A stretch of DNA of 64,000 nucleotides from Squalus acanthias. Lineage: Eukaryota. Made by a program: the position numbers and the translations under genes. The stretch lies in NCBI GenBank assembly GCA_030390025.1, contig CM059431.1:148492001-148556000 (forward strand). Direction: 5' to 3'. Under the pieces are notes generated by a model. It saw only the letters and a program-made list of their open reading frames with translations. It was not told the DNA's origin and ran no database searches. This document shows positions 25,341 to 63,710 of the stretch, in pieces; position 1 is the first letter of the stretch, and every line of letters begins with the position of its first letter.

Positions 25341-25344
25341 TTCG

Positions 25345-27415
25345 GACAGTGTAGAGGGAGTTTTACGCTATATCTAACCCATGCCATATCTGCCGTAGTA
25401 GCGTTTGATGGGGCCGTGTAGAGTGAGCTTCACGCTTTATCTAACACGGGGTGTATATGCCCTGTGAGAGCCTGATGGGACAGTGTAGAGAGAGCTTTAT
25501 TCTGTATCTAATCCCTGCTGTGCCAGCCCTGGGAGTGTTTGATGGGACAGTGTAGAGGGAGCTTTACTCTGTATCTAATCCGTGCTTTATCTGCCTTGGT
25601 AATGTTTTATGGGACAGTGTAGAGGGAGCTTTACTCTGTATCTAGCCTGTGCTGTACCTGCCCTGGGAGCATTTGATGGGAAACTGTAGAGGGAGCTTTA
25701 CTCTGCATATAATCCGTGCTGTACCTGCCCTTGGTAGTGTTGAAGTTGAAAGTGTACAATGAGCTTTACTCTCTAACTAATACGTGCTGTATCTGCCCTG
25801 AAAGTATAGAAGGGCAGTGTAGAGGCAGATTTACTTTGTATCTAACCCGTTCATTATCTGCCCTTGGAGTGTTTCATGGGACAGTGTAGAAGGAGCATTA
25901 CTTTGTATCTATCGCGTGCTGTTCATGCCCTGGGCGTGTTTGATGGGACAGTGCAGAGGGAGCTTTACTTTCAATCGAAACCATGCTAAACCTGCCCTGG
26001 GAGTATTTGCTGGGACAGTGTAGAGGGAGCTTTACCCTGTATCTATCCCTTGTTATACCTGACCTGGGAGTGTTTGATGGGACAGTGTTGATGAAGTTTT
26101 ACTTTGTATCTATCGCGTGCTGTTCATGCCCTGGGAGTGTTTGATGGGACAGTGTAGAGGGAGCTTTACTCTGTATCTAAACGTTGTTATACCTCCCCTC
26201 GGAGTGTTTGCTGGGACAGTGTAGAGGGAGCTTTACTCTGTATCTAACCCGTGCTGTATCTGCCCCTTGAGTGTTTGAGGGGGCTGTGCAGAGGGAACTT
26301 TACTCTGTATCTAACCCGTGCTATACCTGCCCTGGGAGTGTTTGATGGGACAGTGTAGAGGGAGGTTTACTCGGTATTTATCCCGTGCTGTACCTGCCCT
26401 GGGAGTGTTTGATGGGACAGTGTAGATGGAGCTTTACTCTGTATCTAACCCCATGCTGTACCTGACCTGGGAGTATTTGATGGGAATCTGTAGAGGGAGC
26501 TTTACTCTGTATATAATCCGTGTTGTACCTGCCCTTGGTAGTGTTGAAGTTGACAGTGTACAGAGAGCTTTACTCTCTAACTAATACGTGCTGTATCTGC
26601 CCTGGGAGTATTTGATGGGAAACCGTAGAGGGAGCTTTACTCTGTATCTAACCCTGTGCTGTACCTGCCCTGGGAGTGTTTGATGGGACAGTGTAGAGGG
26701 AGCTTTACTCTGTATCTAACCATTTTTATACCTGCCCTGGGAGTGTTTGATGTGACAGTGTACAGGGACCATTACTCTATCGAACCCCGTGCTGTACCTG
26801 CCCTGGGAGTGTTTGATGGGACAGTGTAGAGGGAGCATTACTCTCTATCTAACCGTTGTTATACCTCCCTTCGGAGTGTTTGCTGGGACAGTGTAGATGG
26901 AGCTTTACTCTGTATCTAACCCGTGCTGTATCTGCCCCGGGAGTGTTTGAGTGGGCTGTGCAGAGGGAACTTTACTCTGTATCTAACCCGTGCTGTACCT
27001 GCCCTGGGAGTGTTTGATGGGACAGTATAGAGGGAGCTTTACTCTGTATCTAACCCGTGCTGTACCTGCCCTGGGAGTGTTTGATGGGATAGTGCAGAGG
27101 GAGCTTTACTCTTTATTTAACTCGTGCTGTACCTGCCCTGGGAGTGTTTGATGGGACAGTGTAGAGGGAGCTTTACTCTGTATCTAACCCCGTGATCTAC
27201 CTGCCCTGGGAGCGTTTGATGGGGCAGTGCAGAGGGACCTTTACTCTGTATCGAACCCTTGTTATACCTGCCCTGTGAATGTTTGATGGGACAGTGTAGA
27301 GGGAGCTTTACTCTGTATCTAACCCCGTGCTGTACCTGCCCTGGGAGTGTTTGATGGGACAGTGTAGAGGTTACTTTACTCTGTATCGAACCTCGTTCTG
27401 TACCTGCCGGGGGAG
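25345..27415. repeat. 67-bp satellite, ~31 copies
   Basis: gtgtagagggagctttactctgtatctaacccgtgctgtacctgccctgggagtgtttgatgggaca; a dispersed monomer also at ~8800-8880. Confidence 0.95.
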
Positions 27416-30480: not shown

Positions 30481-30564
30481 CATTCCAGCTGGACCGCGGA
30501 AAAGTTCTAATTTACTATGGTAGAAAACGTGCTGGATTGAAAGGGGTTAACAGAAGCTGTTTTT

Positions 30565-30720
30565 TCAGTGATTTTAATTAATGTCAGTCTCCACTGATTA
30601 ACTGAAACTGTTTGTTCAGTGACTGTAATTAATGTCAGTCTCGGTGGACCGTAATTCTCTCAGTGCAGGGTTTCCCTCTTCTATTAATAAGGGACTCCTT
30701 TCAATGTGTTATCCCATAGT
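30565..30720 (+). promoter_or_regulatory. Putative GPCR promoter block
   Basis: ctgtttgttcagtgactgtaattaatg...g.tttccctct shared with 53581-53660, upstream of both first exons. Confidence 0.55.
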
Positions 30721-30819
30721 ATCTGTGACGGCATTACCTCTGGTACTAACAGGGATCAACGCGCTGCTTCGCAAAGAAGGAGTCGGAATCTAAGAACAGT
30801 AGATTGGAATATTACAACA

Positions 30820-31000
30820 ATGGATTGGAATCTGAGAACAGTAGATTGGAATGTTACAACAATGGGCAAGAGTTTTTCCTCGGCGTTTGACGTTCTTTAT
30901 GAATATTATGATATGCTATCATTACAAAGTCGGATCCTTTACGCACTTCAGACGATTCAAATCTTTTACTATCCCCTCCTTGCTGTTGTTGGTGTTCCTG
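30820..31000 (+). CDS. GPR139-like: Exon 1 of GPR139/GPR142-like class A GPCR (N-terminus to mid TM1)
   Basis: MDWNLRTVDWNVTTMGKS...IQIFYYPLLAVVGVP G|GTAAGG phase-1 donor; start ATG choice (30820 vs 30862) uncertain. Confidence 0.78.
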
Positions 31001-31104
31001 GTAAGGCTCTCTATATTGCTATTAAGTCTATAAACCTTGTTTAACAGGATCACTGTTCTTATCTTTTACTCTCCCCTCCTTTGCTGCGGTTGTTATTCGG
31101 TAAA

Positions 31105-31212
31105 AAAAGAAGGACTTGCATTTGTATAGGGTCTTTCATGACAACCGTACGTCACAAAGTGCTTTACAGCCAATTAAGTTATTTTTGAAGTCGATTCATT
31201 GTTGTAATGTGG
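31105..31212 (-). mobile_element. Deu-type SINE 3' fragment
   Basis: Matches 32610-32720; flanked by ggtaa on both sides. Confidence 0.7.
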
Positions 31213-31379
31213 GTAAGTCTCTGTAACCAACTATTACCTCTCCAAACCTTTGCCTACTGTATTACCTTTCTCGTAAGTTACTCTCTCATCTTTGCCGCTG
31301 TTGGTATTCCTGTGAAGTCTCTACATTCAGCAATTAGATCTATACACCACGTCTCACTCTTTTGCTGTGTTTGTTATTT

Positions 31380-31860
31380 AAATCTTGGGAACACCAAAGC
31401 CATTGTCTTCAGTCCTCGTTACAAAGTCCATGTTTTAATCTACCAATTCAATCTCCCTCCCTGACCAACGTGTGAGGATGAACCAGACTGTTCGCAAACA
31501 CGGCGTTTTCTTTGACCTTGAGCTGTGTTCCGACCTTGTATCCTCTGATTCCCCAGTCCTGCCTAAAACCATTTCCATAATATCGAACATGTCAGTCTCA
31601 CCTCAGCCCTTCCACTGCATAAACCCCCACCCATGCCTTTTTTTAAACCTGACTGGAATATTCCAATAATCTCCTGGCTTACCTCCATAAACTAGAGTTC
31701 ATCCAAATCTCTGCTGCCCATAACCGAACACGCACCATTTCCTGTTCACACATCAACCCTTTGCTCGCTGACCAACATTTGCTCCCGAGCGGGAAAAGCC
31801 TCGATCTTAATATTCTCATCATTATGATCAAATCCCACCATGACCTCACCCCTACAATTA
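31380..31860 (+). mobile_element. Old L2 LINE fragment
   Basis: LNLGNTKAIVF, TVRKHGVFFD, LEFIQISAA-like decayed L2 motifs, related to 41000-41520. Confidence 0.65.
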
Positions 31861-43794: not shown

Positions 43795-44412
43795 TTAAAG
43801 ACACAGCAGTCACACAGGCTTCTTTATCAGACAGGACCAGTCACACAGGCTTTTTAAACAGATAGAACCAGTCACAATGTTTATTAAAGAGACAGGATCA
43901 GTAACACAGAATTCTTTAAGAGACAGGACAAAACACATTCGTTTTTAAAGAGACAGGACCAGTCGCAGAGCCTTTATAACGAAGCAGGAACAGTCACATA
44001 GGCTATTTAAAGAGACTGAACGAGTCACTCAAGCTTTTTAAGGTTACAGGACCATTCACTTAGGATTTTAACGAGACAGGACTATTCACTCAGGAATTGT
44101 ATAGATACAGGACTGGTCACAAAGGCTTTATAAAGAGACAAGTCCAGTCACACAGGTTTTACAAAGAGATAGTACCTGTCATACAGATATTTTAAAGAGA
44201 CAGGACCAGTCACAAAGGCTTTTTAAAGAGCCAGCACCAGACAAGGAGGCATTTTTAAAGAGACAGGACCAGTCATACAGGCTTTTTAAAGAGACAGGAC
44301 TAGTCACACAGCCTTTTTAATGAATCAGAAACACTGAGAAAAACTTTATCAAGAAAAAGGACCAGACACATAGATTTTTTTAAGAGACAAACCCAGTCAC
44401 ACAGGCGTTTTA
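43795..44412. repeat. 30-31 bp degenerate minisatellite, ~20 copies
   Basis: taaagagacaggaccagtcacacaggcttt consensus. Confidence 0.85.
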
Positions 44413-45510: not shown

Positions 45511-46320
45511 AACCCGGGAGAGTTCAAAAGCAGCAGGAGCAGAGCGACAGCGATAAAACCCGGTAGAGTTCAAAAGCAGCGGGGGCAGAGCCAGAGCGCC
45601 AAAACACGGGAGAGTTGAAGACAGCGGGAGCAGAGCGAGAGGGCCAAAACCCGGGAGTTTTCAAAAGCAGCGGGAGCAGAGCCAGAGCGCCAAATCCCAG
45701 GAGAGTTCAAAAGCAGCGGGAGCAGAGCGAAATCGCCAAAACCCGGGAGAGTTCAAAAGCAGCGGGAGCAGAGCGAGAGCGCAAAAACCCGAGAGAGATC
45801 AAAAGCAGCGGGTGCAGAGCGAGAGTACCAAAACACGAGAGAGTTCAAAAGCAGCGGGTGCGGAGCTAGAGCGCCAGAACCCGAGAGAGTTCAAAAGCAG
45901 CGGGAGCAGTGCGAGAGCGCCAAAATTCGGGAGAGCTCAAAAGCAGCGGGAGCAGAGCGAGAGCGCCAGAACCCGAGAGAGTTCAAAAGCAGCGGGAGCA
46001 GTGCGAGAGCGCCAGAACCCGAGAGAGTTCAAAAGCAGCGGGAGCAGAGCGAGAGCGCCAGAACCCGAGAGAGTTCAAAAGCAGCGGGAGCAGTGCGAGA
46101 GCGCCAAAACCCGGGAGAGTTCAAAAGCAGCGGGAGCAGTGCGAGAGCGCCAAAACCCGGGAGAGTTCAAAAGCAGCGGGAGCAGTGCGAGAGCGCCAAA
46201 ACCCGGGAGAGTTCAAGAGCAGCGCGAGCACTGCGAGAGCGCCAAAACCCGGGAGAGTTCAAAAGCAGCGGGAGCAGTGCGAGAGCGCCAAAACCCGGGA
46301 GAGTTCAAGAGCAGCGGGAG
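45511..46320 (+). repeat. 46-bp CpG-rich tandem monomer array (~17 copies) at the CR1 5' end
   Basis: aaaacccgggagagttcaaaagcagcgggagcagtgcgagagcgcc. Confidence 0.93.
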
Positions 46321-50661: not shown

Positions 50662-52323
50662 GGCTCAGTTGACAGCAAACTCGCCTCTGAGTCAGAAGGT
50701 TGTGTGTTCAATTCCAACTCCAGCGACGTGATTACAAAAATCTAGGATGACACTCCAGTGCAGTACTTAGGGAGCGCTGCACTGTCGGAGGGGCAGTACT
50801 GAGCTATCGCTGCACTGTCGGAGGGGCAGTGCTGAGGGAGCGCGTCACTGTCGGAGGGGCAGTTTTGAGGGAGCGCTGCACTGTCGGAGGGTCTGTACTG
50901 AGGTAACACTGCACTGATGGAGGGACAGTACTGAGGGAGCGCTGCACTGTTTGTGGGTCAGTACTGAAGGTGAGCTTCACTGTCGGAGGATCAGTACACA
51001 GGGATCACTTCACTGTCTGAGCGGCAGTACTGAGGGATCGCTGCACTGTCGGAGGGTCAGTACTGAAGGAGCGCTGCTGTGTAGGAGGGGCAGTACCGTG
51101 GGATCATTGCACTGTCGTAGGGTCAGTCCTGAGGGAACGCTGCACTGTCTGAGGGGCTGTACTGAGGAAGAGCTGCACTGTCAAATGGGCAGTACCGTAG
51201 GAGCGTTTTATTGTTGAAGGGTTAGTACTGAGGGAGCGCTGCACTGTCGGAAGAGCAGTACTGAACGAGTGCTGCACTGTTGGAAGTTCAGGGAGCACTG
51301 TCTTTTCGAGGGACAGTATTGATGGAGTGTTGCACTGTCAGAGTGAAAGTACTGAGGGAGAGCTCTACTGTTGCAGAGGCATTATTGAAGGAGCGCTGCA
51401 CTGTCAGAGGGGCAGTTCTGAGGGGGCGATGCACTGTCGGAGGGGCAGTACTGAGGGAGAGCTGCACAGTCGCAGTACTGTACTGAGGGACCGATGCACT
51501 GCCGGAGTGGCAGTGATGAGGGAGCCCTGCACTGTCGGATGGTCATTACTGAGGGAGCTCTGTATTCGCGGAGGGGCAATACTGAGGGAGCGCTGCACTG
51601 TCTGAGCGGCAGTACTGAGGGATCGCTGCACTGTCGGTTGGTCAGTACTGAAGGAGCGCTGCACTGCCGTAGGTATAGTACCGAGGGATCACTGCACTGT
51701 CGGAGGGTCACTACTGAGGGAGCGCTGCATTGTCTGAGGGGCTGTACTGAGGAAGCGCTACACTGTCAAATGGGCAATACTGAGGGAGCGCTGCACTGTC
51801 GGAGGGGCAGTACTGCGGCAGCGCTGCACTGTCGGAGCGGCAGTACTGCAGCAGCGTTGCACTGTCGGAGGGGCAGTACTGAGGGATAGCTGCACTGTCG
51901 GAGGGGCAGTACTGAGGCAGCGCTGCACTGTCGGAGGGGCAATACTGAAGTGGCGCTGCACTGTTGAAGGGTCAGTACGGAGGGAGCGCTGCACTGTTGA
52001 AGGGTTAGTACTGAGGGAGCGCTGCACTGTTGTAGGGTCAGTACTGAGGGAGCGCTGCACTGTCGGAGAGGCAGTACTGAGGGAGCGCTGCACTGTCGGA
52101 AGGGCAGTACTGAGCGAGTGCTGCACTGTTCGACCTGCAGGGAGCACTGTATTGTCGAGGGACAGTAATGGCGGAGTGTTGCACTGTCAGAGTGAAAGTA
52201 CTGAGGGAGTGCTCGACTGTTGTAGAGGCAGTACTGAGGGAGTACTGTCCTGTCGGAGGGGCCGTCTTTAGGATGCTCTCTTTGGTCGTTAAAGGTGCTC
52301 TATAAATGCAAGTCTTTCTTTCT
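50662..52323 (+). mobile_element. Deu-type SINE with internal 33-bp minisatellite expansion
   Basis: Head ggctcagttg..gttcaattcc (50662-50713), array, then gccgtctttaggatg and tail ctataaatgcaagtctttcttt. Confidence 0.85.
50760..52262. repeat. 33-bp minisatellite, ~45 copies
   Basis: cagtactgagggagcgctgcactgtcggagggg. Confidence 0.95.
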
Positions 52324-53110: not shown

Positions 53111-53742
53111 ATTGTCCGAGAATTCAATGTTTCCGGAGCTTTTCATTGAGTATTGAGACTTTAATAGGGTATTTATTTATTGATTAATATTTTAAGCGTT
53201 TTCCTTTGATTCCTTTGTGTCAAACCTTTGCTGGCTTTATTATTTTCTCCCGCTCGGTAAATCACCATTACAAGATTGGCAGGTTGATCTCAATCATTAG
53301 AAACACCTTGTTTTTCTTATCCGCGATTCAGGAAAATATGAATGCCCTGGGAACAACTTGCTGGACTAAGGCAGGAACATGTAACCTTGGCAGCCGTGGG
53401 AATGAAATTCCTAAACTAAGGCGGGAGCAGTGTAATCTCGGCTACCCTGGGAATTAAATTCCTGGACTGAGGGAGGGTGAAATGTCGTGCAGACGCTCCA
53501 TTTTAATTTAAAGCTGTGTACAATAATGTGAGCTAGATTGTGTTGCAGTGAAGTGTTGGGATGATAATGGCTCAATGATTCTGTTTGTTCAGTGACTGTA
53601 ATTAATGCCAGTTGCAGTGAGGCCTAATGATGTCACTCGGGGATTTCCCTCTGCTCTAAATTATGAGCTCCCTTCACTGTGTGACCTCACACAATCAGCG
53701 CGTTCCCTCCAGCACAAAGACCACCAGCCTGTCACAGAAGAG

Positions 53743-54594
53743 ATGTCATGGGTTCGAGGAGCTCCATGGAAAGTATTCTTGAACAGTGTCAGTTAACTAC
53801 AGTACTTTGGAATAACAACAGAACATGTGAAAAACACTCAGTAGGTCAGGCAGCATCCGTAGAGAGAGAAAGAGTTAACGTTTCAGGTCTGTGACCCTTC
53901 AGGAAAAGCGGGTAGGAGAGGAAAGAACAAAAGGGATTGACTGTGATAGGGTGGAAGGCAGCAGTGGTTAAATGTTTCAAATGGGGATGGGAGAATCGTC
54001 AACAGCTGCCGTCTGAAAAAAAGGGGTCGAGGTTATGGTCTGTAATTGCAGTACTCACTGCTGCGTCCAGTAGGCTGTAATGTGCCTAACAGAAAGATGA
54101 AGTGCTGTTCCTCGAGCTTAAGTTGAGCTTCATTGGTACAGTATAAGAAGCAGAGGCCGGTGATGTCAGAATGGGAGGGGAATAGAGAATTAAAGTGACA
54201 GGAAACCTGAAGCTCAGCGATACAGTTACGGAATGAACGGAAGTGTTCCGCATACCGATCACCCAATCTGCATTTGGTCTCCCAAATGTAGAGGAGACCG
54301 CATCGTCAGCAGCGAATACAGTATACTAAATTGCAAGAAGTACAAGTAAATCGCTGTTTCACCTGGAAGGAGTGTTTGGGGCCCTGGACAGTGGGAAGGG
54401 AGAAGGTAAAAAGGCCGGTGTTGCATCTCCTGCGCTTGCACGGGGAGGTTCCGTGGGGATGGGTGCGGCTGTTGGTGGTGATTAAGGAGTGAACCAGAAT
54501 ATTGTGGAGGGAGCGGTTCCTTCGGAATACTGAAAGTGAAGGAGAGGATTACCAAATATTTACTATCCCCTTCTCGCTACTGTTAATGTTCATA
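53743..54594 (+). pseudogene. Disrupted paralogous GPCR exon 1
   Basis: Promoter block at 53581; MSWVRGAPWKVFLNSVS*LQYFG [Penelope insert] LPNIYYPLLATVNVH A|GTAAGT, homologous to FYYPLLAVVGVP G|GTAAG. Confidence 0.65.
53812..54545 (-). mobile_element. Penelope-like element 3' part (GIY-YIG remnant, truncated hammerhead at 53873-53903)
   Basis: GDRYAEHFRS..VSCHFNS..KLEEQHFIF; colinear with 35580-36470. Confidence 0.88.
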
Positions 54595-54631
54595 GTAAGT
54601 ATTTATTAACAATTATTAATTCTATAAACCA

Positions 54632-55282
54632 CAGTCTCCAGAGCTGTAGTGATACCCGCCCTCCTGCATTCTTCAGAGAAGTGGACGATGTACAGCAGGC
54701 ACCTCAAAGCACTGGAGAGCAACGACCAACGCTGATTCCGCAAGATCCTGCTAATCCATTGGCAGCATAGGCGCACCAAATCAGTGTTCTCGCTCAGGCC
54801 AACATCCCCAGCATCGAAGCTTGGAGCTTGCTCGATCAGCTCCGATGGAAGGGTCACATCGCCCTCATGCCCGATACGAGACTCCCAAAGCAACGCTCTA
54901 CTCGGAGCTCCGACACGGCAGTATAGCCCCAGGTGGGCAGAGGATATGCTTCAAGGGTAACCTCAAAGCCTCCTTGAAAATGAGCAACATCCTCACCGAC
55001 ATCTGGGAATGCCTGACCCAAGATCGCAGAAAGTGCAGAAGAAGCATCTGGGAAGGCGCCGAACACCTCGACTCTCTTCGCTGGGAGCAAGCGGAAGCCA
55101 AGCGCAAGCAGCGCAAGGACCGCTCGTCAACCCAAGCACCCCAACCACCCGCCCCGTCAACCATCGTCTGCCCTACTTGTGACAGAGACTGTAGGTCCGC
55201 ATTGGACTCATCAGTCACCTGTGAACTCATTTTTAGTGTGGAAGCAAGTCATCCTCGGTTCCGAGGGATTGCCTAAGTAGAG
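54632..55282 (+). mobile_element. RTE-clade LINE 3' fragment with AAACCA target-site duplication
   Basis: RAVVIPALL..SEKWTMYSRHLKALE, LYSELRHG..GGQR..LKASLK, CPTCDRDC; aaacca at 54626-54631 and 55283-55288. Confidence 0.85.
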
Positions 55283-55794
55283 AAACCATGTTACAATCTA
55301 ATATTATTCTTGCAATTTACCGTGAAATACTCTGTTATTAATGATATTCTGTGTTTCAAGTTGTTGCATCTTCGTTAATGCAAGATTTGTTTAAAAAGAC
55401 TGACACATCCTCACTGCTGTTGGTGTTCCTGGTAAGTATATGCATCCAGCTGTTAATTCTATAAATCATGTCTAACTGTATTACGGTTCTTGTCATTTAC
55501 TGCCCCACACACCCTCGCTAATGGTGGTGTTCCTGGTAAATCTCTGGATCCAGCTATTAATTCTACAAATCATGTTTAACTGTATTTCTCTTCATGCCAT
55601 TCCTCATCCCATCGGCACTGCTGTCGGCTATTGATTCTGAAGGTGATACAGCGCTAATAAGATTCAATTGTTCTATATTCAACTTAAGAAAATATATCGG
55701 ACGAGACTCTTTGCTCAACGAATTCCGTTCTGCTGTCTGCACTGAACATTTGTAACAGATCAGAAGTATATTGTCTTGTTTGAGGAGATTTTCA

Positions 55795-55930
55795 ACTAAC
55801 GACGAAAGATCATCGACTTGAAACTAACTCTCTCTCTGCACAGATTTTGCCTGACCTGCTGAGTACTGAAAACATTTTCTGTTCTTATTTCAGATTTCCA
55901 GCATCCGCAGTAATTTGGTTTTGTTTTCAC
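55795..55930 (+). mobile_element. Solo Penelope terminal fragment with degenerate hammerhead
   Basis: gacgaaagatcatcgacttgaaactaactc..ctgacctgctgagta..tttccagcatccgcagta. Confidence 0.7.
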
Positions 55931-56984
55931 CGAATGCTCGGTATGGTTACTGACACAGAGTCACAGGAACAAATCCTGGCAGATCACACTCACATCTTTA
56001 AATGTCTGAAATATCCGCGAATCATTCAGTTCCAGTCACTGGCTCTTTTCCCACCATCTCCAGCTCTGCATTAGTGGCACTGCTTCTGAAGGATAGAAAA
56101 GGATTAGTAGGATAATTTACATTCTCAAAAAACGTTCACTCAGAAATATTTCAATGAGTTTAATTCCAATCTTTGTTTTCAATTTACAATTGGATCCCAT
56201 GCCGGCCTGTCACAGTTCAGTCGATCTCTCAGTGAACCCAGAGTGATTCTCTATTGCCTCCTGCTGTACTGCAGAATAAACAATCCCAGCTGATTGTAAC
56301 TGATTTACTGAGGATAAGAAAATCCTTTCATATTTTCTCGACTAATATTCTCTGCACAAGTTGGAAAGCAACAGGCGAAAAAGTGCAAGGATAAATCTCT
56401 TCCATTTGAGTTCAGATACTTTACAAAATCGTTCGACGGCTCGTTGCCTGTTGAATAAGTCGCGTGATTATGATGCTAATAAATGCATTTAGTGGGTTAT
56501 TACCTGGTCAATTTTAACTATTTATTTTAATTCAGAGTCCATTCTTTGCAATGTTATTTGGAAAATCTTCCTTTCAATGAGCCACAATTTGAGTATTTCA
56601 ACATAACTGTAGAAAGCTCAATCTTCAAATCACTTCTTACATCCCAGTTATCTTTATAACTGCAGGGCACTTGCCTTTATTTTCTCAGTATTTTCATAAT
56701 ACAGCCGTACATTTTAAATAAAGTTGGCTGTAATTAATGCACGCCAAGTTTACAGTTTCTGTAATTTGCCGTTGCATTCATTTTCAGTCCTAAATCTAAT
56801 GGATATCTAACCAGGAGCAGGAGTCCAAGCGGTATTTCCCCCTTTCTAACATAAAGGGCATTGAAGGAAATTGCTCCGGTCCAAATGCTGACTGATCCCG
56901 GGACACGAAGGCTTCCTGAGAGCTTCTGGTCCTGTGTGTCCCTGGTACCTCGTCGGTGCTTTTGTCTGCTGGGCTAAAGGTAGA

Positions 56985-59900
56985 TCATAGAATTATAGAA
57001 TCATAGAAGATAGGAGCAGGAGTAGGCCATTCGGCCCCTTCAAGCCTGCTCCGCCATTCAATGCGATCATGGCTGATCATCCAAATTCAGTACCCTGTCC
57101 CTGCTTTCTCCCCATATCCCTTGATCCCTTTAGCCTTAAAAATATATCCAACTCCTTCTTGAATCTATTTAATGAATAACAGTTTCACCACTCTCTGGGT
57201 GAAGAAATTCCTCCTCATTTCTGTCCTTAATGGCTTAACCCTTATCCTTTGGCTGTGACCCCTGATTCTGGACTCCTCGACCATCGGGAACATCCTTCCT
57301 GCATCTACTTTGTCCTGTCCTGTCAGAATTTTATAAGTTTCAAGGAGATCCCCTCTCATCTTCTAAACTCCAGCGAGTATAAGGCCAATCCACCCAATCT
57401 CTCTTCAACGTCATTCCTGCCATCCCAGGTATCAGCCTTGTGAATCTTCGCTGAATTCCTTCCATGGCAAGAACATCCTTCCTCAGATAAGGCGACCAAA
57501 ACTGCGCACACTACTCAAGGTGTGGTCTCACCAAGGCCCTGTACAAATGCAGCAAGACATCCTTGTTCCTGTACTCAAACCCTCTCGCTATGAAGGCCAA
57601 CCTACCATTTGCCTTCCTAACCGCCTGCTGCACCTGCATGTTTACCTTCAGCGACTGGTGCAGAAGGACACCCAGGTCTCGTTGCACTTTCCCTTCTCCC
57701 AATCTATTGCCATTCAGATAATAATCTGCCTTTCTGTTTTTGACACCAAAGTGGATAACCTCGCATTTATCCACGTTACATTGCATCTGCCACGCTTCTG
57801 CCCAATCACCCAACCTGTCCAAATCATCCTGTAGTTTATCGGCATCCTCCTCGCAGCACCCATGCCCACCCAGTTTTGTGTCGTCTGCAAACTTGGAGAT
57901 ATTGCATCTAGTTCCCTTGTCTAGATCATTAATATATATTGTGAATAGCTGTGGTCCAAGGACCGATCCCTACTGTACCCCACTAGTCACTGCCTGCCTC
58001 TCGTAAAAATACCCTTTTATTCCAACTCTTTGCTTTCTGTCTGACAACCAGTTCTCTATCCAAGTCAATACCTTGCCCCCAATCCCATGTGCCTTAACTT
58101 TACACGCTAATCTCTTATGCGGGACCTTATCAAATGCCTTTTGGAAGTCCAAATACACCAGATCCACTGGTTTTCCCTTATCTATTTTACCAGTTACATC
58201 CTCAAAAAATTCCAGTTGATTTGTCAAGCATTATTTACCTTTTGTAAATCCAAGTTGATGTTGTCCGTTCCTGTCATTCTTTTCCAAGTGCTCAGCTATT
58301 ACATCTTTTAAAATGAACACTAGAATTTTCCCCACTACCGGTGTCAGGCTTACCGGTCTGTAATTCCCCGTTTTCTCTCTACCACCCTTTTTGAATAGTG
58401 GGGTAACATTAGCTACCCTCCAATCCAAGGGAACTGTTCCCGATTCCATCGAATGTTGGATAATGATCAGCAATGCATCTACTATTTCGAGGGCCACTTC
58501 CTTATATACCCTAGGATCTAGATTATCAAGCCCTGGGGATTTATCGGCCTTCAATCCCTTCAATTTCCCTTGCATAATTTCCCTACAAATACTGATTTCT
58601 TTCAGTCCCTCCCTTTCATCAGACCCTATGTTCCTCAACATTTCTGGGAGGTTATTTGTGTCCTCCTTTGTGAAGACAGAACCAAAATATGTATTTAATT
58701 AGGCTGATATTTCTTTGTTCCCCATTATAATTTCCCCTGATTCTGACTGCAAGGGACCTATGCTTGATTTCACTAATGTTTTTCTCTTCACATATCAATA
58801 AAAGCTTTTAATGTCAGTTTTTATGTTCCCTTCAAGCTTACTCTCATAATCTATTTTCCCCTTCTTAATTAATCCCTTAGTCCTCCTTTGTTTAGTCTTA
58901 AACTGCTCCCAATCCTCAGGGTTACTGCTTTTTCTGGCCATTTTATATGCCCTCTCCTTGGATCTTATGCTATCCCTAATTTCCCTTGTTAGCGACCGTT
59001 GAGTCACCCTTTTTGTATTATTCATATGCCAAACTGGGATGAAAACATTCTGTAGTTCGTCCATGCGGTCTTTCAATGTTTGCCATTGCCTATCCACGGT
59101 CAACCCTTTGAGTGAATTTACCCAATCAATCCTACCCAACTCGCTCCTCATCCCATCGTAGTTTCCTTTAGTTAATTTTAGGAGCCTAGTCTCTGAGGCA
59201 ACTACTTCACTCTCCATCTTAATGAAGAATTCTATCATATTATGATCGGTCCGACCCAATGGGCCTCGCAGAACAACATTGCTAATTAATCCTTTCTCAT
59301 TGCATATTAGCCAGTGTAAGATAGCCTGTTCTCTGGTTGGTTCCTCTACATATTGATCCAGGAAACCATCCCGTAAACACTCCAGGAATTCCTCCTCCAT
59401 AGTATTCTTACTAATTTGGTTAGCCTACTCTATATGTATATTAAATTCACCCATGATGACTGCTGTGCCCTTATTGCACGCTTCTCTTATTTCCCTTTTA
59501 ATGCCATCCCCAACCTCCGCATTACTGTTTTGAGGTCTATATATCACGCCCACTAACGTTTTCTGCCCCTTGTTATTTATCAGTTCAACTCATACAGATT
59601 CCAAATCATCGGAGCTAATATCCTTTCATTCAATTGTGTTAATCCCCTCTTTAACCAGCAATGCTACCCCACCTCCCTTTCGTTTTTGCCTATCTTTCCT
59701 GAATATTGAGTACCCATGGATGTTGAGTTCCCAGCCTTGGCCACCCTGGAGCCATGTTTCGGTAATCCCAATCAAATCATATTCGTTTACCTCTATTTGC
59801 GCAGCTAATTCATCCACCTTGTTCCGAATGCTCCTTGCATTAAGACACAAAGCCTACAGGCTTGTTCTTTTTTAGGCTCTTAGACCTATTAGAATTAGTA

Positions 59901-60455
59901 TTTACTGTGGCCATGTTTGATTTAAACCGTTGTTTTCTCTGACTGCCACTTTTGTTTTTCACCTTCCTATGTTTTGCTGTTATCCTTGATTCCCTTCCCT
60001 CTGTCTCCCTGCTCAGGTTCCCAACCCCCTGCTATTTTAGTTTAAACCCTCGCCAGAGCACTAGAAAACACTCCCCCGAGGACATCGGTCCCGGCCCTAC
60101 CCAGATGTAGGCCGTCCGGTTTGTACTGGTCCCACCTTCCCCAGAACCGTTTCCAATGCCCCAGGAATTTGAATCCCTCCCACTTGTACCATTCCTCTAG
60201 CCACGTATTCATTTGAAATATCCTTCTATTTCTACTCTGACTAACACGTGGCACTGGTAGCAATCCTGAGATTACTACCTTTGAGGACCTATTTATTAAT
60301 TTACCTCCTAACTCCCTATGTTCTGCTTTTAGGACCTAATCCTGTTTTTTACCTATATCGTTGGTACCTATATGCACCACGACAACTGGATGTTCATCCA
60401 CCCCTTCCAAAATTCTCTGTAGCCACTCTGAGACATCCTTGAACCTTGCACCATT
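56985..60455 (-). mobile_element. Long CR1 LINE (ORF1 esterase part, ORF2 APE+RT, 3' tail), inactive
   Basis: YKPDGLHLG (ORF1); CLNARSIRNK..ITETWL; NYRPVSLT; YLDFQKAFDK; (atagaatc)n tail. Confidence 0.93.
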
Positions 60456-60739
60456 TAATCTCTCATTGATCAAATATCTGTTACTTTCCTGTTGTATTTA
60501 GCCCCGTTTCATTGATTGATTCTTCACTGTATTCCCGATCATTCTTACAATAAACCCTGTATTTAGCTCCACGGGTAATCGAATGAGATTATATCATTGA
60601 ATGTCGCTAATGAGTTGCTGATTTCTCCCCGAATTCCTCCAAACTTCTGCTCTTGCTCCCAGCCTGATGTATAATTTCCCTGTTTATTTCCCGTCCCAGC
60701 CTGATGTATAATTTCACTGTTTATTTCCCTTGCTCACAG

Positions 60740-61641
60740 TGAACTTAGTGACGATTCTGATCCTGTCTCGGGGAAAGTGCGGTCTCTCCAAATGTGTCAC
60801 TCGCTACCTGCTGGCCATGGCAGCAGCGGATCTACTGGTCGTTTTCCTCGACCTGATACTGAGGCACATTCCGATTGTTTTTTTGGAACATTTTTATTTC
60901 GTGCGGTCCATTCCCGTGTGTAATATCCACGCCGTCCTGCTTTATGCAGCCACAGACTGTTCTGTCTGGTTCACCGTCAGTTTCACCTTCGATCGATTTG
61001 TGGCCATTTGTCGCCAGAAGCTGAAAACGAAGTATTGCACCGAGAAAACGGCGTCTGTGATTCTGGGAACAGTGACTGTGCTGAGCGGCTCAAAGAACAT
61101 TTCCTGGTATTTTATGTTCACAGCTTGGTATGGGCTTTGGAACATTCCCTGGTTTTGTGAAGTAACAATCGATGTTATGAAATCACGTGCCTGGGCAGCA
61201 ATTGAGCTCCTTCATTATAGTCTCACCCCGGCGGTCCCATTTGTTCTGATTCTGCTGTTCAATGTTCTCACCGTCAAACACATTTTAGTGGCCAGCAAAG
61301 CCCGCAGGAGATTCCTGGGTCCCAGCAGTGGTGAGATTCAGAGAGACCCAGAGATGGAGAGCCGCAGGAAATCCATCATTTTACTGCTTGTTATCTCGGG
61401 CAATTTCATCCTGTTATGGGCAGTGTTTATGGTGATTTACATATGGAGCCGGATAGGGTCTATCAGTCCTGTGTCTGTAAATGCTCCTCTTTATTTACTG
61501 GAATTGGGATTGATGCTGCAGATGCTGAGTTGCTGCACAAACACAGGGATTTATGCCGTGACCCAGACTAAGTTCAGAGAGCAGTTGAAGAATATGGGGA
61601 AATATCCCTTTACTCTGATTGTAAAATTCATTAAAGGATAA
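60740..61641 (+). CDS. GPR139-like: Exon 2 of GPR139/GPR142-like class A GPCR (TM1 end to C-terminus)
   Basis: Acceptor ttccct tgctcacag|TG; VNLVTILILSRGKCGLSKC..LAMAAADL (TM2), FTFDRFVAIC (TM3), TM5-TM7, CCTNTGIY, helix 8 KFREQL; no stops. Confidence 0.92.
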
Positions 61642-61709
61642 TGTTAAACGGATAATTTGCACCTGACAGCTTCCTTGGTGTGATTTTTATTTTAAACATT
61701 TTCATTTAT

Positions 61710-63710
61710 GTATGGGATCCGGGCGTCGCTGGAAATGCCAGCAATTATTGCCCATCCCTAGTTGCCCTTGAGAAGGTGGGGGTGAGCCGCCTTCTTGAAC
61801 TGCTTCAGTCCGTGTGGTGAAGGTACTCCCACAGTGCTGTTAGGTAGGCAGTTGCAGGATTTTGCCCCAGCGACGATTAAGGATCGGCGATATTCTTCTA
61901 AGTAAGGATGTTGTGTGACTTGGAGGGGAAATTGGGAGTCGTGGTGTTCCCATACGCCTTCTTCCCTTATCCTTCTAGGTGGAAGAGGTCACGGGTTTAG
62001 GAGGTCCTGCCGAAGAAGCCTTGGCGAGTTGCTGAAGTGCATTCTGTAGATGGTACAAACTGCAGCCACGGTACGCCGGTGGTGGAGGGAGTGAATGTTT
62101 AATGTGGTTGATGGGATGCCAATCAAGCGGGCTGCTTTGTCCTGGATGGTGTCGAGCTTCTTGACGGTTATTGGAGCTACACTCATCCAGGCAAGTGAAG
62201 AGTTTACAATCACACTCCTTACTTGTGCCTTGTAGATTGTGTTTAGGCTTTGGAGAGTCAAAGGTAAGACACTCGGCGCAGAATACCAAGCCTCTGAACT
62301 GCTCTTGCTCCACAGTATTTATGTGGCTAGTGCAGTTAAGTTTCTGGTTAATGGTGACACCCAAGATGTTGATAGTGGGGGATTCGGCGATGGTAATGCC
62401 ATTGAATGTCAAGGGGAGGTGTTTAGACTCTCGCTTGTTGGAGATAGTCATTGCCTGGCATTCTGTGGCGCGAATGTTACCTGCCACTTATCAGCCCAAG
62501 CCTGAACGTCATGCAGGTATTGTTGTATGCGGGCATGGACTGCTTCATTATCTTTTGAGTTGTGAATGGCGCAGAACACAATGCATTCACCAGCGAACAT
62601 CCCCATTTCTGACCTAATGTTGGAGGCAAGGTCATTGATGGACCAGCTGAAGATGGTTGGGCCCAGGACACTGCCCTTATGAACTCCTGCAGTGATGTCC
62701 TGGGGCTGTGATGATTGACCTTTAAACCACGACAATCATCTTCCTTTGTGATAGATAGGAATCCAGCCAGTGGAGCGTTTTCCCATTGACTTCAGTTTTA
62801 CTGGGGCTCCTTGATGCCACACTCGGTCATATGCTGCCTTGATGTCAAGGGCAGTCACTCTCCCCTCACCTCTGGAGTTCTGCTCCTTTGTGCATGTTTG
62901 GACCAAGTCTGTAATGAGGTTGGGAGCCGAGTAGTCTTGGCGGAACCCAAACTGGGCATCAGTGAGCAGGTTATTGGTGAGTAAGTGCCGCTTGATAGCA
63001 CTGTCGATGACACCTTCCATCACTTTGCTGAGGATTGAGAGTAGATTGATGGCGCGTTAATTGGCCGAGTTGGATTTGTCCTGCTTTTTGTGGACAGGAC
63101 ATACCTGGGCAGTTTTCCACATTGTCGGATAGATGTCAGTGTTGTAGCTGTACTGGAACAGCTTGGCTAGTGGCGTGGCTAGTTCTGGAGCACAAATCTT
63201 CAGCACGATAGCCGGGATGTTGTAGGGGTCCATAGCCTTTGCTGTACCCAGTGCACTTCGCCGTTTCTTGATATCACGTGGAGTGAATTGAATTGGCTGA
63301 AGATTGGCATCTGTGATGGTGGGGATCTCGTGAGTAGGCCGATATGGTCCATCCACTCGGCAGTTCTGGTTGAAGCTGGTTGCGAATGCTTGAGCCATGT
63401 CATTTGCACTCATGTGCTGGGCTCTACCATCATTGAGGATGGGGATATTCTTTGAGCCTCCTTCTCCCGTTAGTTGGATGTGGGAAGCCTGAAGAGCAGA
63501 TCCGTTCATTTTGGGATCGCTTCGCTCTCTCTATAGCTTGCTGCTTCCGCTTTTAAGCATGAATGTAGTCCTGCGTTGTAGCTTCTCCAGTTTGGCACCT
63601 CATGTTTAGGTACGCCTGGTGCTGCTCCTGACATGCTCTTCTGCACTCGTTGTTGAACCAGGGTAAATCCCCTGCTTCGTGGTAATTCTAGTGGAAACCA
63701 TATGCCGGGC
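61710..63710 (-). mobile_element. CR1-clade LINE family B, 3' 2 kb with RT
   Basis: WKTAQVCPVHKK, DAQFGFR, ALDIKAAYDRVWH, GSVLGPTIF, GMFAGEC. Confidence 0.9.

What the first reader, a model, noticed from the sequence alone, without database searches (positions are those of the whole stretch)
53570..54600. Two promoter-plus-first-exon modules feed one GPCR second exon; the proximal one is broken by a Penelope insertion
Seen: ctgtttgttcagtgactgtaattaatg occurs at 30608 and 53581, each ~160-210 nt upstream of an ATG and an exon ending YYPLLAxVxV(P/H) N|GTAAG in phase 1. The proximal exon has a different N-terminus, an in-frame TAA and a ~735-bp Penelope insert flanked by gga. Inferred: either a variable-first-exon design (different extracellular N-termini on a shared 7TM body, as in protocadherin or UGT1 clusters) or a chimera in which an upstream paralogue's exon 1 replaced the dead one.
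Basis: partly seen in the sequence, partly recalled or inferred. Interest (0 to 1): 0.72.

Follow-up and report, generated by a model that had tools for sequence, protein, structure and literature searches.

The report
Dead first exon, shark receptor gene
In a very large shark receptor gene family, one gene has lost its own first exon to a transposon insertion, and the intact first exon of an upstream relative probably now supplies its front end; this is most likely ordinary gene-family turnover, not a built-in system for swapping receptor ends.

Summary
The anatomy is real. The window holds two homologous promoter/first-exon modules (30.5-31.4 kb; 53.3-55.6 kb) and one intact 7TM second exon (60740-61641) of the elasmobranch 'probable GPR139' expansion. 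The distal exon 1 is an intact long-type family exon; with exon 2 it gives a 360-aa ORF. The proximal exon 1 is dead: 737-bp Penelope-like insert, a frameshift, and two tail residues unseen in 166 family tails. One correction: the TAA lies outside the ancestral frame, and the 'gga' duplication is unproven. The shared 27-mer appears to be a family-wide promoter element. A variable-first-exon design is not supported: among 293 family proteins, exon 1 follows exon 2 in 291 of 298 close pairs. The clearest exception, a Heptranchias gene model, is a long-type exon 1 on a short-type exon 2, the layout suspected here. Best reading: two neighbouring paralogues each lost one half, and the surviving halves make a chimeric gene. 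Expression is unshown, and trees cannot name exon 2's native partner. Low interest.

The parts
30490..30819 (+). Distal promoter/5' region, with a partial copy (30557-30588) and the full copy (30608-30634) of the 27-mer and a TATA-like box at 30682
   Evidence: 'TATA-like' is read from the sequence, no TSS data
30820..31000 (+). Distal exon 1 CDS, intact, long type (21-nt repeats coding DWNxTT units): extracellular N-terminus plus outer half of TM1; phase-1 donor at 31001
   Evidence: 22.8 bits on the family profile against a family median of 21.8; every tail residue seen in the family
31061..31380 (+). Decayed tandem copies of the exon-1 tail/donor region; last detected homology of the distal module, repeats follow
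53365..53463 (+). Decayed tandem repeat (2 x 51 bp) upstream of the proximal promoter; no copy found at the distal module
   Evidence: back-joints in a relative's contigs show more units in other copies (table 5c)
53500..53747 (+). Proximal promoter/5' region with the 27-mer at 53581-53607
53748..53810 (+). 5' part of the dead proximal exon 1 (short type), ancestral frame from ATG 53748
   Evidence: profile score; this ATG lines up with the family start position
53811..54547 (-). 5'-truncated Penelope-like element (3' end with C-terminal GIY-YIG region; one stop in 165 aligned codons)
54548..54594 (+). 3' part of the dead proximal exon 1: one-base loss near 54556, N at the conserved G, H at the conserved P; donor GTAAGT at 54595
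55403..55601 (+). Two ~104-bp decayed copies of the exon-1 tail/donor region (82% alike)
55897..56952 (+). Family-type intron sequence, multi-copy in a relative's contigs and linked there to 60452-60455 without the intervening LINE
   Evidence: tables 5, 5c and 8; weak, the table-5 joint has only 29 letters on its short side
60740..61641 (+). Exon 2: intact 300-codon 7TM body (inner half of TM1 to C-terminus) of a GPR139-like class A GPCR
   Evidence: 7tm_1 E 8.7e-19; 2366 relatives, best 74-75% identical; human GPR139 the only PDB match at E<=1e-5

Best explanation
Birth-and-death chimera by exon capture. Two same-strand paralogues of the shark GPR139-like family stood in tandem. The upstream, long-type gene lost its 3' intron and exon 2. 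The downstream, short-type gene lost its exon 1 to a Penelope-like insertion, a frameshift and decay. Transcription from the intact distal promoter and splicing 31000 to 60740 across a 29.7-kb intron (skipping the dead exon) would give a 360-aa receptor. It would carry one paralogue's N-terminus and outer TM1 on the other's 7TM body. Shown: the anatomy, the open 360-codon frame, the death of the proximal exon, the absence of another exon 2 in the window. Inferred: that exon 2 was natively the proximal exon's, the order of events, and that the chimera is expressed.
For: Spliced frame of 360 aa without an internal stop; 360 aa is the second commonest length among the 293 family proteins (34). 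No exon-2 remnant between the modules. The distal module's homology ends near 31380, whereas the proximal side carries the upstream tandem repeat and family-type intron leading to exon 2. Exon 2 has probably outlived the proximal exon: it departs at 8 of 139 conserved columns (family median 4; 32 of 166 have 8 or more), while the proximal tail has 2 residues unseen in 166 tails plus a frameshift and an insert. A neutral exon 2 stays open in 2% of simulations at 5% divergence and 0.2% at 8%. Precedent: Heptranchias model P0521 has a P0115-type long exon 1 on an exon 2 that is 97-99% identical to those of four short-type genes, switching at the exon junction; P0521, P0115 and P0118 list the same longest-contig length.
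Against: No transcript evidence. Trees leave exon 2 unplaced: sister to long-type P0006 (SH 86; support 61), a polytomy in the careful tree, and grouping with short-type P0047/P0205 neither shown nor rejected (p-AU 0.72). The proximal exon's likeness to P0047 (score 29) lies inside the shuffle range of 21-32. The insert may be young (1 stop in 165 codons), and at 2% divergence a neutral exon 2 stays open in 21% of simulations. Gene conversion could also keep a dead exon 2 open. P0521 is an automatic model. The contig joint linking the proximal intron to exon 2 is short-sided.
Confidence: 0.5

Rival explanations
1. Two independent relics, no functional gene: an orphan upstream exon 1 and a recently killed downstream gene whose exon 2 has not yet decayed, or is refreshed by gene conversion.
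For: Exon 2 departs at twice the family median of conserved columns, 8 against 4. Neutral survival is 21-45% at 1-2% divergence, and the 60-codon distal exon survives in 42% of simulations at 5%. The distal module has no detected upstream tandem repeat. Exon-2 trees tend to cluster by species, as under conversion.
Against: The proximal tail shows 3 replacement substitutions in two conserved codons plus a frameshift, more decay than exon 2 shows. The distal exon fits the family profile at the median and has a perfect donor.
Confidence: 0.22
2. The distal exon 1 is the native partner of exon 2. The proximal module is a stray relic of another paralogue, or of an older copy, sitting inside a long intron.
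For: Most of the closest relatives of exon 2 carry long-type exon 1s. Exon 2 shares 5 rare residues with long-type P0006, against 1 with P0047 among strongly conserved columns, and is its sister in FastTree.
Against: Family-type intron runs from the proximal side into exon 2, while the distal module ends after about 380 bp of intron. Tree support is weak.
Confidence: 0.12
3. A maintained variable-first-exon design, as in UGT1 or protocadherin clusters, of which one member has died here.
For: Two promoters with a conserved motif, the same splice phase and one shared exon 2. UGT1 clusters do contain pseudogene and relic variable exons (PMC1885805, passages).
Against: Only two modules in the window, one dead, of different length classes. 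In 293 family proteins no identical exon 2 carries unlike exon 1s (0 of 3 pairs), and 291 of 298 close pairs agree. The motif appears in other family copies.
Confidence: 0.08
4. Assembly artefact: a collapse or mis-join in the satellites between the modules removed the distal gene's exon 2.
For: Four tandem arrays or array families lie between the modules, three of them long (43.8-44.4, 45.5-46.3, 50.8-52.3 kb), in a multi-copy gene family.
Against: No N in the window. No family-type 3' intron follows the distal exon before those arrays begin.
Confidence: 0.08

Closest known systems
Elasmobranch 'probable G-protein coupled receptor 139' expansion (automatic NCBI/UniRef names; Heptranchias perlo, Heterodontus francisci, Pristiophorus japonicus and others)
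   Same: Same 7TM body (74-75% best identity), same junction in TM1, long-type N-terminus with DWNxTT repeats, 360-aa length class.
   Different: Here a second, dead exon-1 module of the short type lies between exon 1 and exon 2. Whether that is common could not be counted without a genome.
Heptranchias perlo model XP_067836187.1 (P0521)
   Same: Long-type exon 1 joined at the exon boundary to the exon 2 of a short-type subfamily: the product predicted for this window.
   Different: Its donor subfamilies are both known, so chimerism is visible in the protein; here it is inferred from the layout. It is an automatic model and its genomic layout was not seen.
UGT1, GCNT2 and clustered protocadherin variable-first-exon clusters (PMC1885805, passages read)
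   Same: Several promoter-plus-first-exon units with a conserved upstream motif ahead of one downstream region; relic first exons occur.
   Different: Those have arrays of intact first exons of similar length, each spliced to conserved constant exons, and the layout is conserved across vertebrates. Here one of two is alive and the family co-inherits exon 1 with exon 2.
Human GPR139 (PDB 7VUG, 9M42)
   Same: Only PDB match at E<=1e-5 (E 1.1e-8).
   Different: Distant; orthology, ligand and function are not transferable on this evidence.

Membership tests
Variable-first-exon cluster (UGT1/PCDH/GCNT2 type) | Tandem first exons, each with its own promoter and a conserved upstream motif | tested here: met
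   Two modules with the 27-mer and a homologous 5' region; only two in the window
Variable-first-exon cluster (UGT1/PCDH/GCNT2 type) | No constant region between the variable exons | tested here: met
   No exon-2 remnant elsewhere in the window
Variable-first-exon cluster (UGT1/PCDH/GCNT2 type) | At least two intact variable exons of like length and frame | tested here: not met
   Proximal exon broken; 60 against about 37 codons
Variable-first-exon cluster (UGT1/PCDH/GCNT2 type) | Products that share an identical constant part under different N-termini | tested here: not met
   0 of 3 pairs with identical exon 2, and 7 of 298 close pairs, differ in exon 1 among 293 relatives; the sample is gene models of other species
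Variable-first-exon cluster (UGT1/PCDH/GCNT2 type) | Each first exon spliced to the constant exon in mRNA; layout conserved in related species | not testable with these tools
   No run on record as RNA was listed; no genome held
Elasmobranch GPR139-like expansion | 7tm_1 body with nearest relatives in this family | tested here: met
   the 120 listed hits all carry this name
Elasmobranch GPR139-like expansion | Short first coding exon ending in the YYP..GVP tail, joined within TM1 | tested here: met
   Exon-1 HMM 41.6 bits at 30922-30999; open 360-aa frame. The junction in relatives is inferred from their proteins, not their genes
Elasmobranch GPR139-like expansion | Orthology to mammalian GPR139 | tested here: inconclusive
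   Only a distant best-PDB match; no tree with outgroups was built
Penelope-like element (EN+) | C-terminal GIY-YIG endonuclease | tested here: met
   Insert 63% identical over 124 aa to the second copy's ORF, which scores 0.96 to GIY-YIG clusters. Pfam itself is below cut-off
Penelope-like element (EN+) | Linked PLE-type reverse transcriptase | not testable with these tools
   Both copies in the window are 5'-truncated; truncation is typical of PLEs (PMC8557442, passages)
Penelope-like element (EN+) | Target-site duplication | tested here: inconclusive
   Junction bases can be assigned to the element or to the target

The most novel reading that the evidence does not exclude
The locus is a snapshot of how a variable-first-exon gene is born. 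After the upstream paralogue lost its exon 2, two promoters fed one 7TM body until the proximal exon died. Such exon-1 capture may recur across the shark GPR139-like family as a route for swapping the extracellular N-terminus and outer TM1 between subfamilies, with some loci still keeping two live first exons.
Probability: 0.12. Interest if true: 0.6.

Novelty: new member of a known kind. Interest (0 to 1): 0.27.

Why it matters
As it stands, this is one case of paralogue fusion in a fast-turnover family, and a warning for annotation: gene finders will join such halves whether or not cells do. If transcripts confirmed it and genome-wide counts showed surplus live first exons, it would be a GPCR family that diversifies its ligand-facing end by exon capture, and a testable model for the origin of UGT1/protocadherin-like clusters. 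The family itself (2366 proteins at E<=1e-20) was not described in any paper listed by five searches and may deserve more attention than this locus.

Tried and rejected
No genome is held for this window, so exon-1:exon-2 counts and the orthologous locus could not be examined. Run search: no RNA holder listed; best word share 0.20. Laying 4 of the 12 listed runs on 53250-61720 was swamped by repeats. None of the 15 joints shown (527 not shown) or loose ends shown concerned the 54594/60740 junctions, which is no evidence either way; the distal exon lay outside the stretch. One contig of a possibly-RNA run matched 53533-53740 at about 86%; it may be DNA and was not used. A search for relatives of the P0047 N-terminus returned only itself. 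Assignment of the proximal exon to the P0047 subfamily was rejected as within the null. The SGxKN residue shared with P0047 proved common to the sawshark paralogues viewed, so it is not diagnostic. Three trees and AU tests did not place exon 2; they used 161 of 164, 62 selected and 29 selected relatives. The script had a faulty pattern and wrong offsets; only its junction print-outs are used. The repeat copies of the donor region are not preceded by an open frame back to a family-type start. Look-ups of earlier findings near, by words and by sequence gave nothing. A six-term paper search on chimeric receptor genes gave 0 papers.

Full report
Setting. The window is from a cartilaginous fish: the one large coding exon (60740-61641) is a 7tm_1 domain (E 8.7e-19). 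Its relatives number 2366 at E<=1e-20 among 3443 candidates; the 120 listed are all shark models named 'probable G-protein coupled receptor 139', best identity 74-75%. Human GPR139 is the only PDB match at E<=1e-5. In two fast trees the exon falls among sawshark (Pristiophorus) paralogues (12 of 12 other rows, SH 94; 15 of 15, SH 92), which hints at a squalomorph host; the careful tree does not support that clade. No genome is held.

Observation. The 27-mer occurs at 30608 and 53581, far beyond chance (about 2e-7), inside a homologous promoter block. Profile searches find two promoter modules, two exon-1 tails above 10 bits (41.6 and 13.6) and one exon 2 in the window. Donors are GTAAG at 31001 and 54595, both phase 1, and the acceptor opens at 60740. 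The distal exon (30820-31000) is an ordinary long-type family exon. It scores 22.8 bits on a right-anchored profile built from 90 representatives of 193 exon 1s, whose own median is 21.8 (biased upward, as they built the profile). With exon 2 it gives 360 codons without an internal stop.

The proximal exon. The insert spans 53811-54547. It is the 3' end of a GIY-YIG-bearing element on the minus strand; a C-terminal GIY-YIG and 5' truncation fit Penelope-like elements (PMC8557442, passages). The frame from ATG 53748 scores -0.8 bits, reached by 0.4% of 20,000 random peptides, and restores the family's W-D-x-Q motif; it needs a one-base loss near 54556. That ATG also aligns with the family's start position. 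So the lesion is insertion plus frameshift, not a stop, and a clean 'gga' duplication is not shown. The tail has N at -3 and H at -1, each seen in 0 of 166 distinct family tails. That the exon junction lies inside TM1, at the GxxN motif of class A receptors, is from my own knowledge of the fold.

Is the motif special to this pair? Probably not. Upstream sequence read through in gene models of other sharks resembles the distal 5' region (P0045, P0060, P0087). A relative's contigs cover 53250-53815 at many-copy depth, and one carries the motif twice with a spacer like the distal one (tables 2 and 5c). The motif is thus best read as a family promoter element, not as a sign of a local exon duplication. 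It holds forkhead-like and homeodomain-like words (recalled consensus, not tested).

Variable-exon test. Of 542 proteins fetched, 297 had a canonical exon-1 end, at least 23 aa of exon 1 and at least 260 aa of exon 2; 293 were distinct. Of 298 pairs with exon 2 at least 95% identical, 7 have exon 1 under 50% identical, and none of the 3 pairs with identical exon 2 does. The 7 trace to two proteins. P0521 (Heptranchias, XP_067836187.1; 4 pairs) has a P0115-type long exon 1 on an exon 2 that is 97-99% identical to short-type genes, switching at the junction. P0104 (sawshark; 3 pairs) differs between two short types. Supported exon-2 sister groups with unlike exon 1s also appear in the careful tree (P0045 with P0065/P0115, 98/88; P0067 with P0118, 98/91). 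So exon 1 and exon 2 are normally inherited together, with occasional swaps. That is the pattern of recombination in a tandem family, not of UGT1/protocadherin clusters, where arrays of intact, similar first exons splice to conserved constant exons (PMC1885805, passages). The sample consists of automatic models from other species, drawn through 90% clusters, and may under-report isoforms.

Which exon 1 is native? Layout favours the proximal one. It keeps an upstream 2 x 51-bp repeat not found at the distal module. The sequence 55.9-56.95 kb is multi-copy in a relative at about 85-89% identity and is linked there to 60452-60455 without the LINE (the table-5 joint has only 29 letters on its short side). 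The distal module's homology stops near 31380. Protein evidence is split: exon 2 shares 5 rare residues with long-type P0006 and is its sister in FastTree (SH 86); it is unplaced in the careful tree; and the tree holding it with short-type P0047/P0205 is 6.1 log units better than the quick free tree, without significance (p-AU 0.72).

Is it alive? Exon 2 departs at 8 of 139 conserved columns (median 4; 32 of 166 relatives have 8 or more), so it is at most mildly relaxed. In neutral simulations (indels set at 8% of substitutions, my assumption) it stays open in 45, 21, 10, 2 and 0.2% of runs at 1, 2, 3, 5 and 8% divergence. The proximal tail looks more decayed than that, which favours continued use of exon 2 through the distal exon. 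But the insert itself has only one stop in 165 aligned codons, and gene conversion can keep an exon open, so this is suggestive only. No expression data could be obtained.

Literature. Five searches for the family (listings and abstract starts only) gave no paper on it. 'GPR139' with 'shark' occurs in 4 papers, none on this family by title and abstract start. The catshark genome paper has no 'GPR1' string in its main text (PMC11979771, passages). The whale shark paper speaks of a relative paucity of GPCRs in cartilaginous fishes (PMC8455134, passages). Supplements were not read and may list the family; most subscription journals are not in the library.

Verdict. The feature is real, with one detail corrected. 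The most likely reading is a chimera of two half-dead neighbours (0.50); the rivals are two silent relics (0.22), a native distal exon with a stray relic (0.12), a maintained variable-exon design (0.08) and mis-assembly (0.08). It is ordinary for a birth-and-death family: interest 0.27.

Noticed in passing
window 31061-31380 and 55403-55601: Both first exons are followed by decayed tandem copies of their own tail and donor. The copy at 55413-55436 keeps the family tail and GT donor better (2 mismatches in 24) than the proximal exon itself (6). Unexplained.
   Followed up: partly
P0521 (XP_067836187.1), P0115, P0118, P0517, P0518, P0520: A Heptranchias gene model is an exact exon-boundary chimera of two subfamilies; worth checking for RNA support.
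   Followed up: partly
family trees: Exon 2 tends to cluster by species while long-type exon 1 motifs recur in several shark orders, hinting at concerted evolution of the 7TM exon. Not formally tested.
   Followed up: no
window 30785-30865: The distal N-terminus is built from 21/42-bp repeats whose number varies among relatives (1 to 5 units). The first unit has lost the family's ATG here, and an out-of-frame upstream ATG lies near 30704.
   Followed up: partly
window 54632-55285 and 56997-60450: Two further LINE-like fragments in the proximal intron. The second has an RVT_1 hit; the labels RTE-like and CR1-like are recalled, not from a call.
   Followed up: no
window 25344-27415, 43807-44412, 45511-46320, 50760-52262: Tandem arrays of period 67, 31, 46 and 33 bp; three lie between the two modules and are possible assembly weak points.
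   Followed up: no
window 60657-60729: A 37-bp duplication (97% alike) in the polypyrimidine region just before the exon-2 acceptor.
   Followed up: no
family as a whole: A family of thousands of shark and ray GPCR models with no paper found in five searches, although a genome paper describes GPCRs as relatively scarce in cartilaginous fishes.
   Followed up: partly
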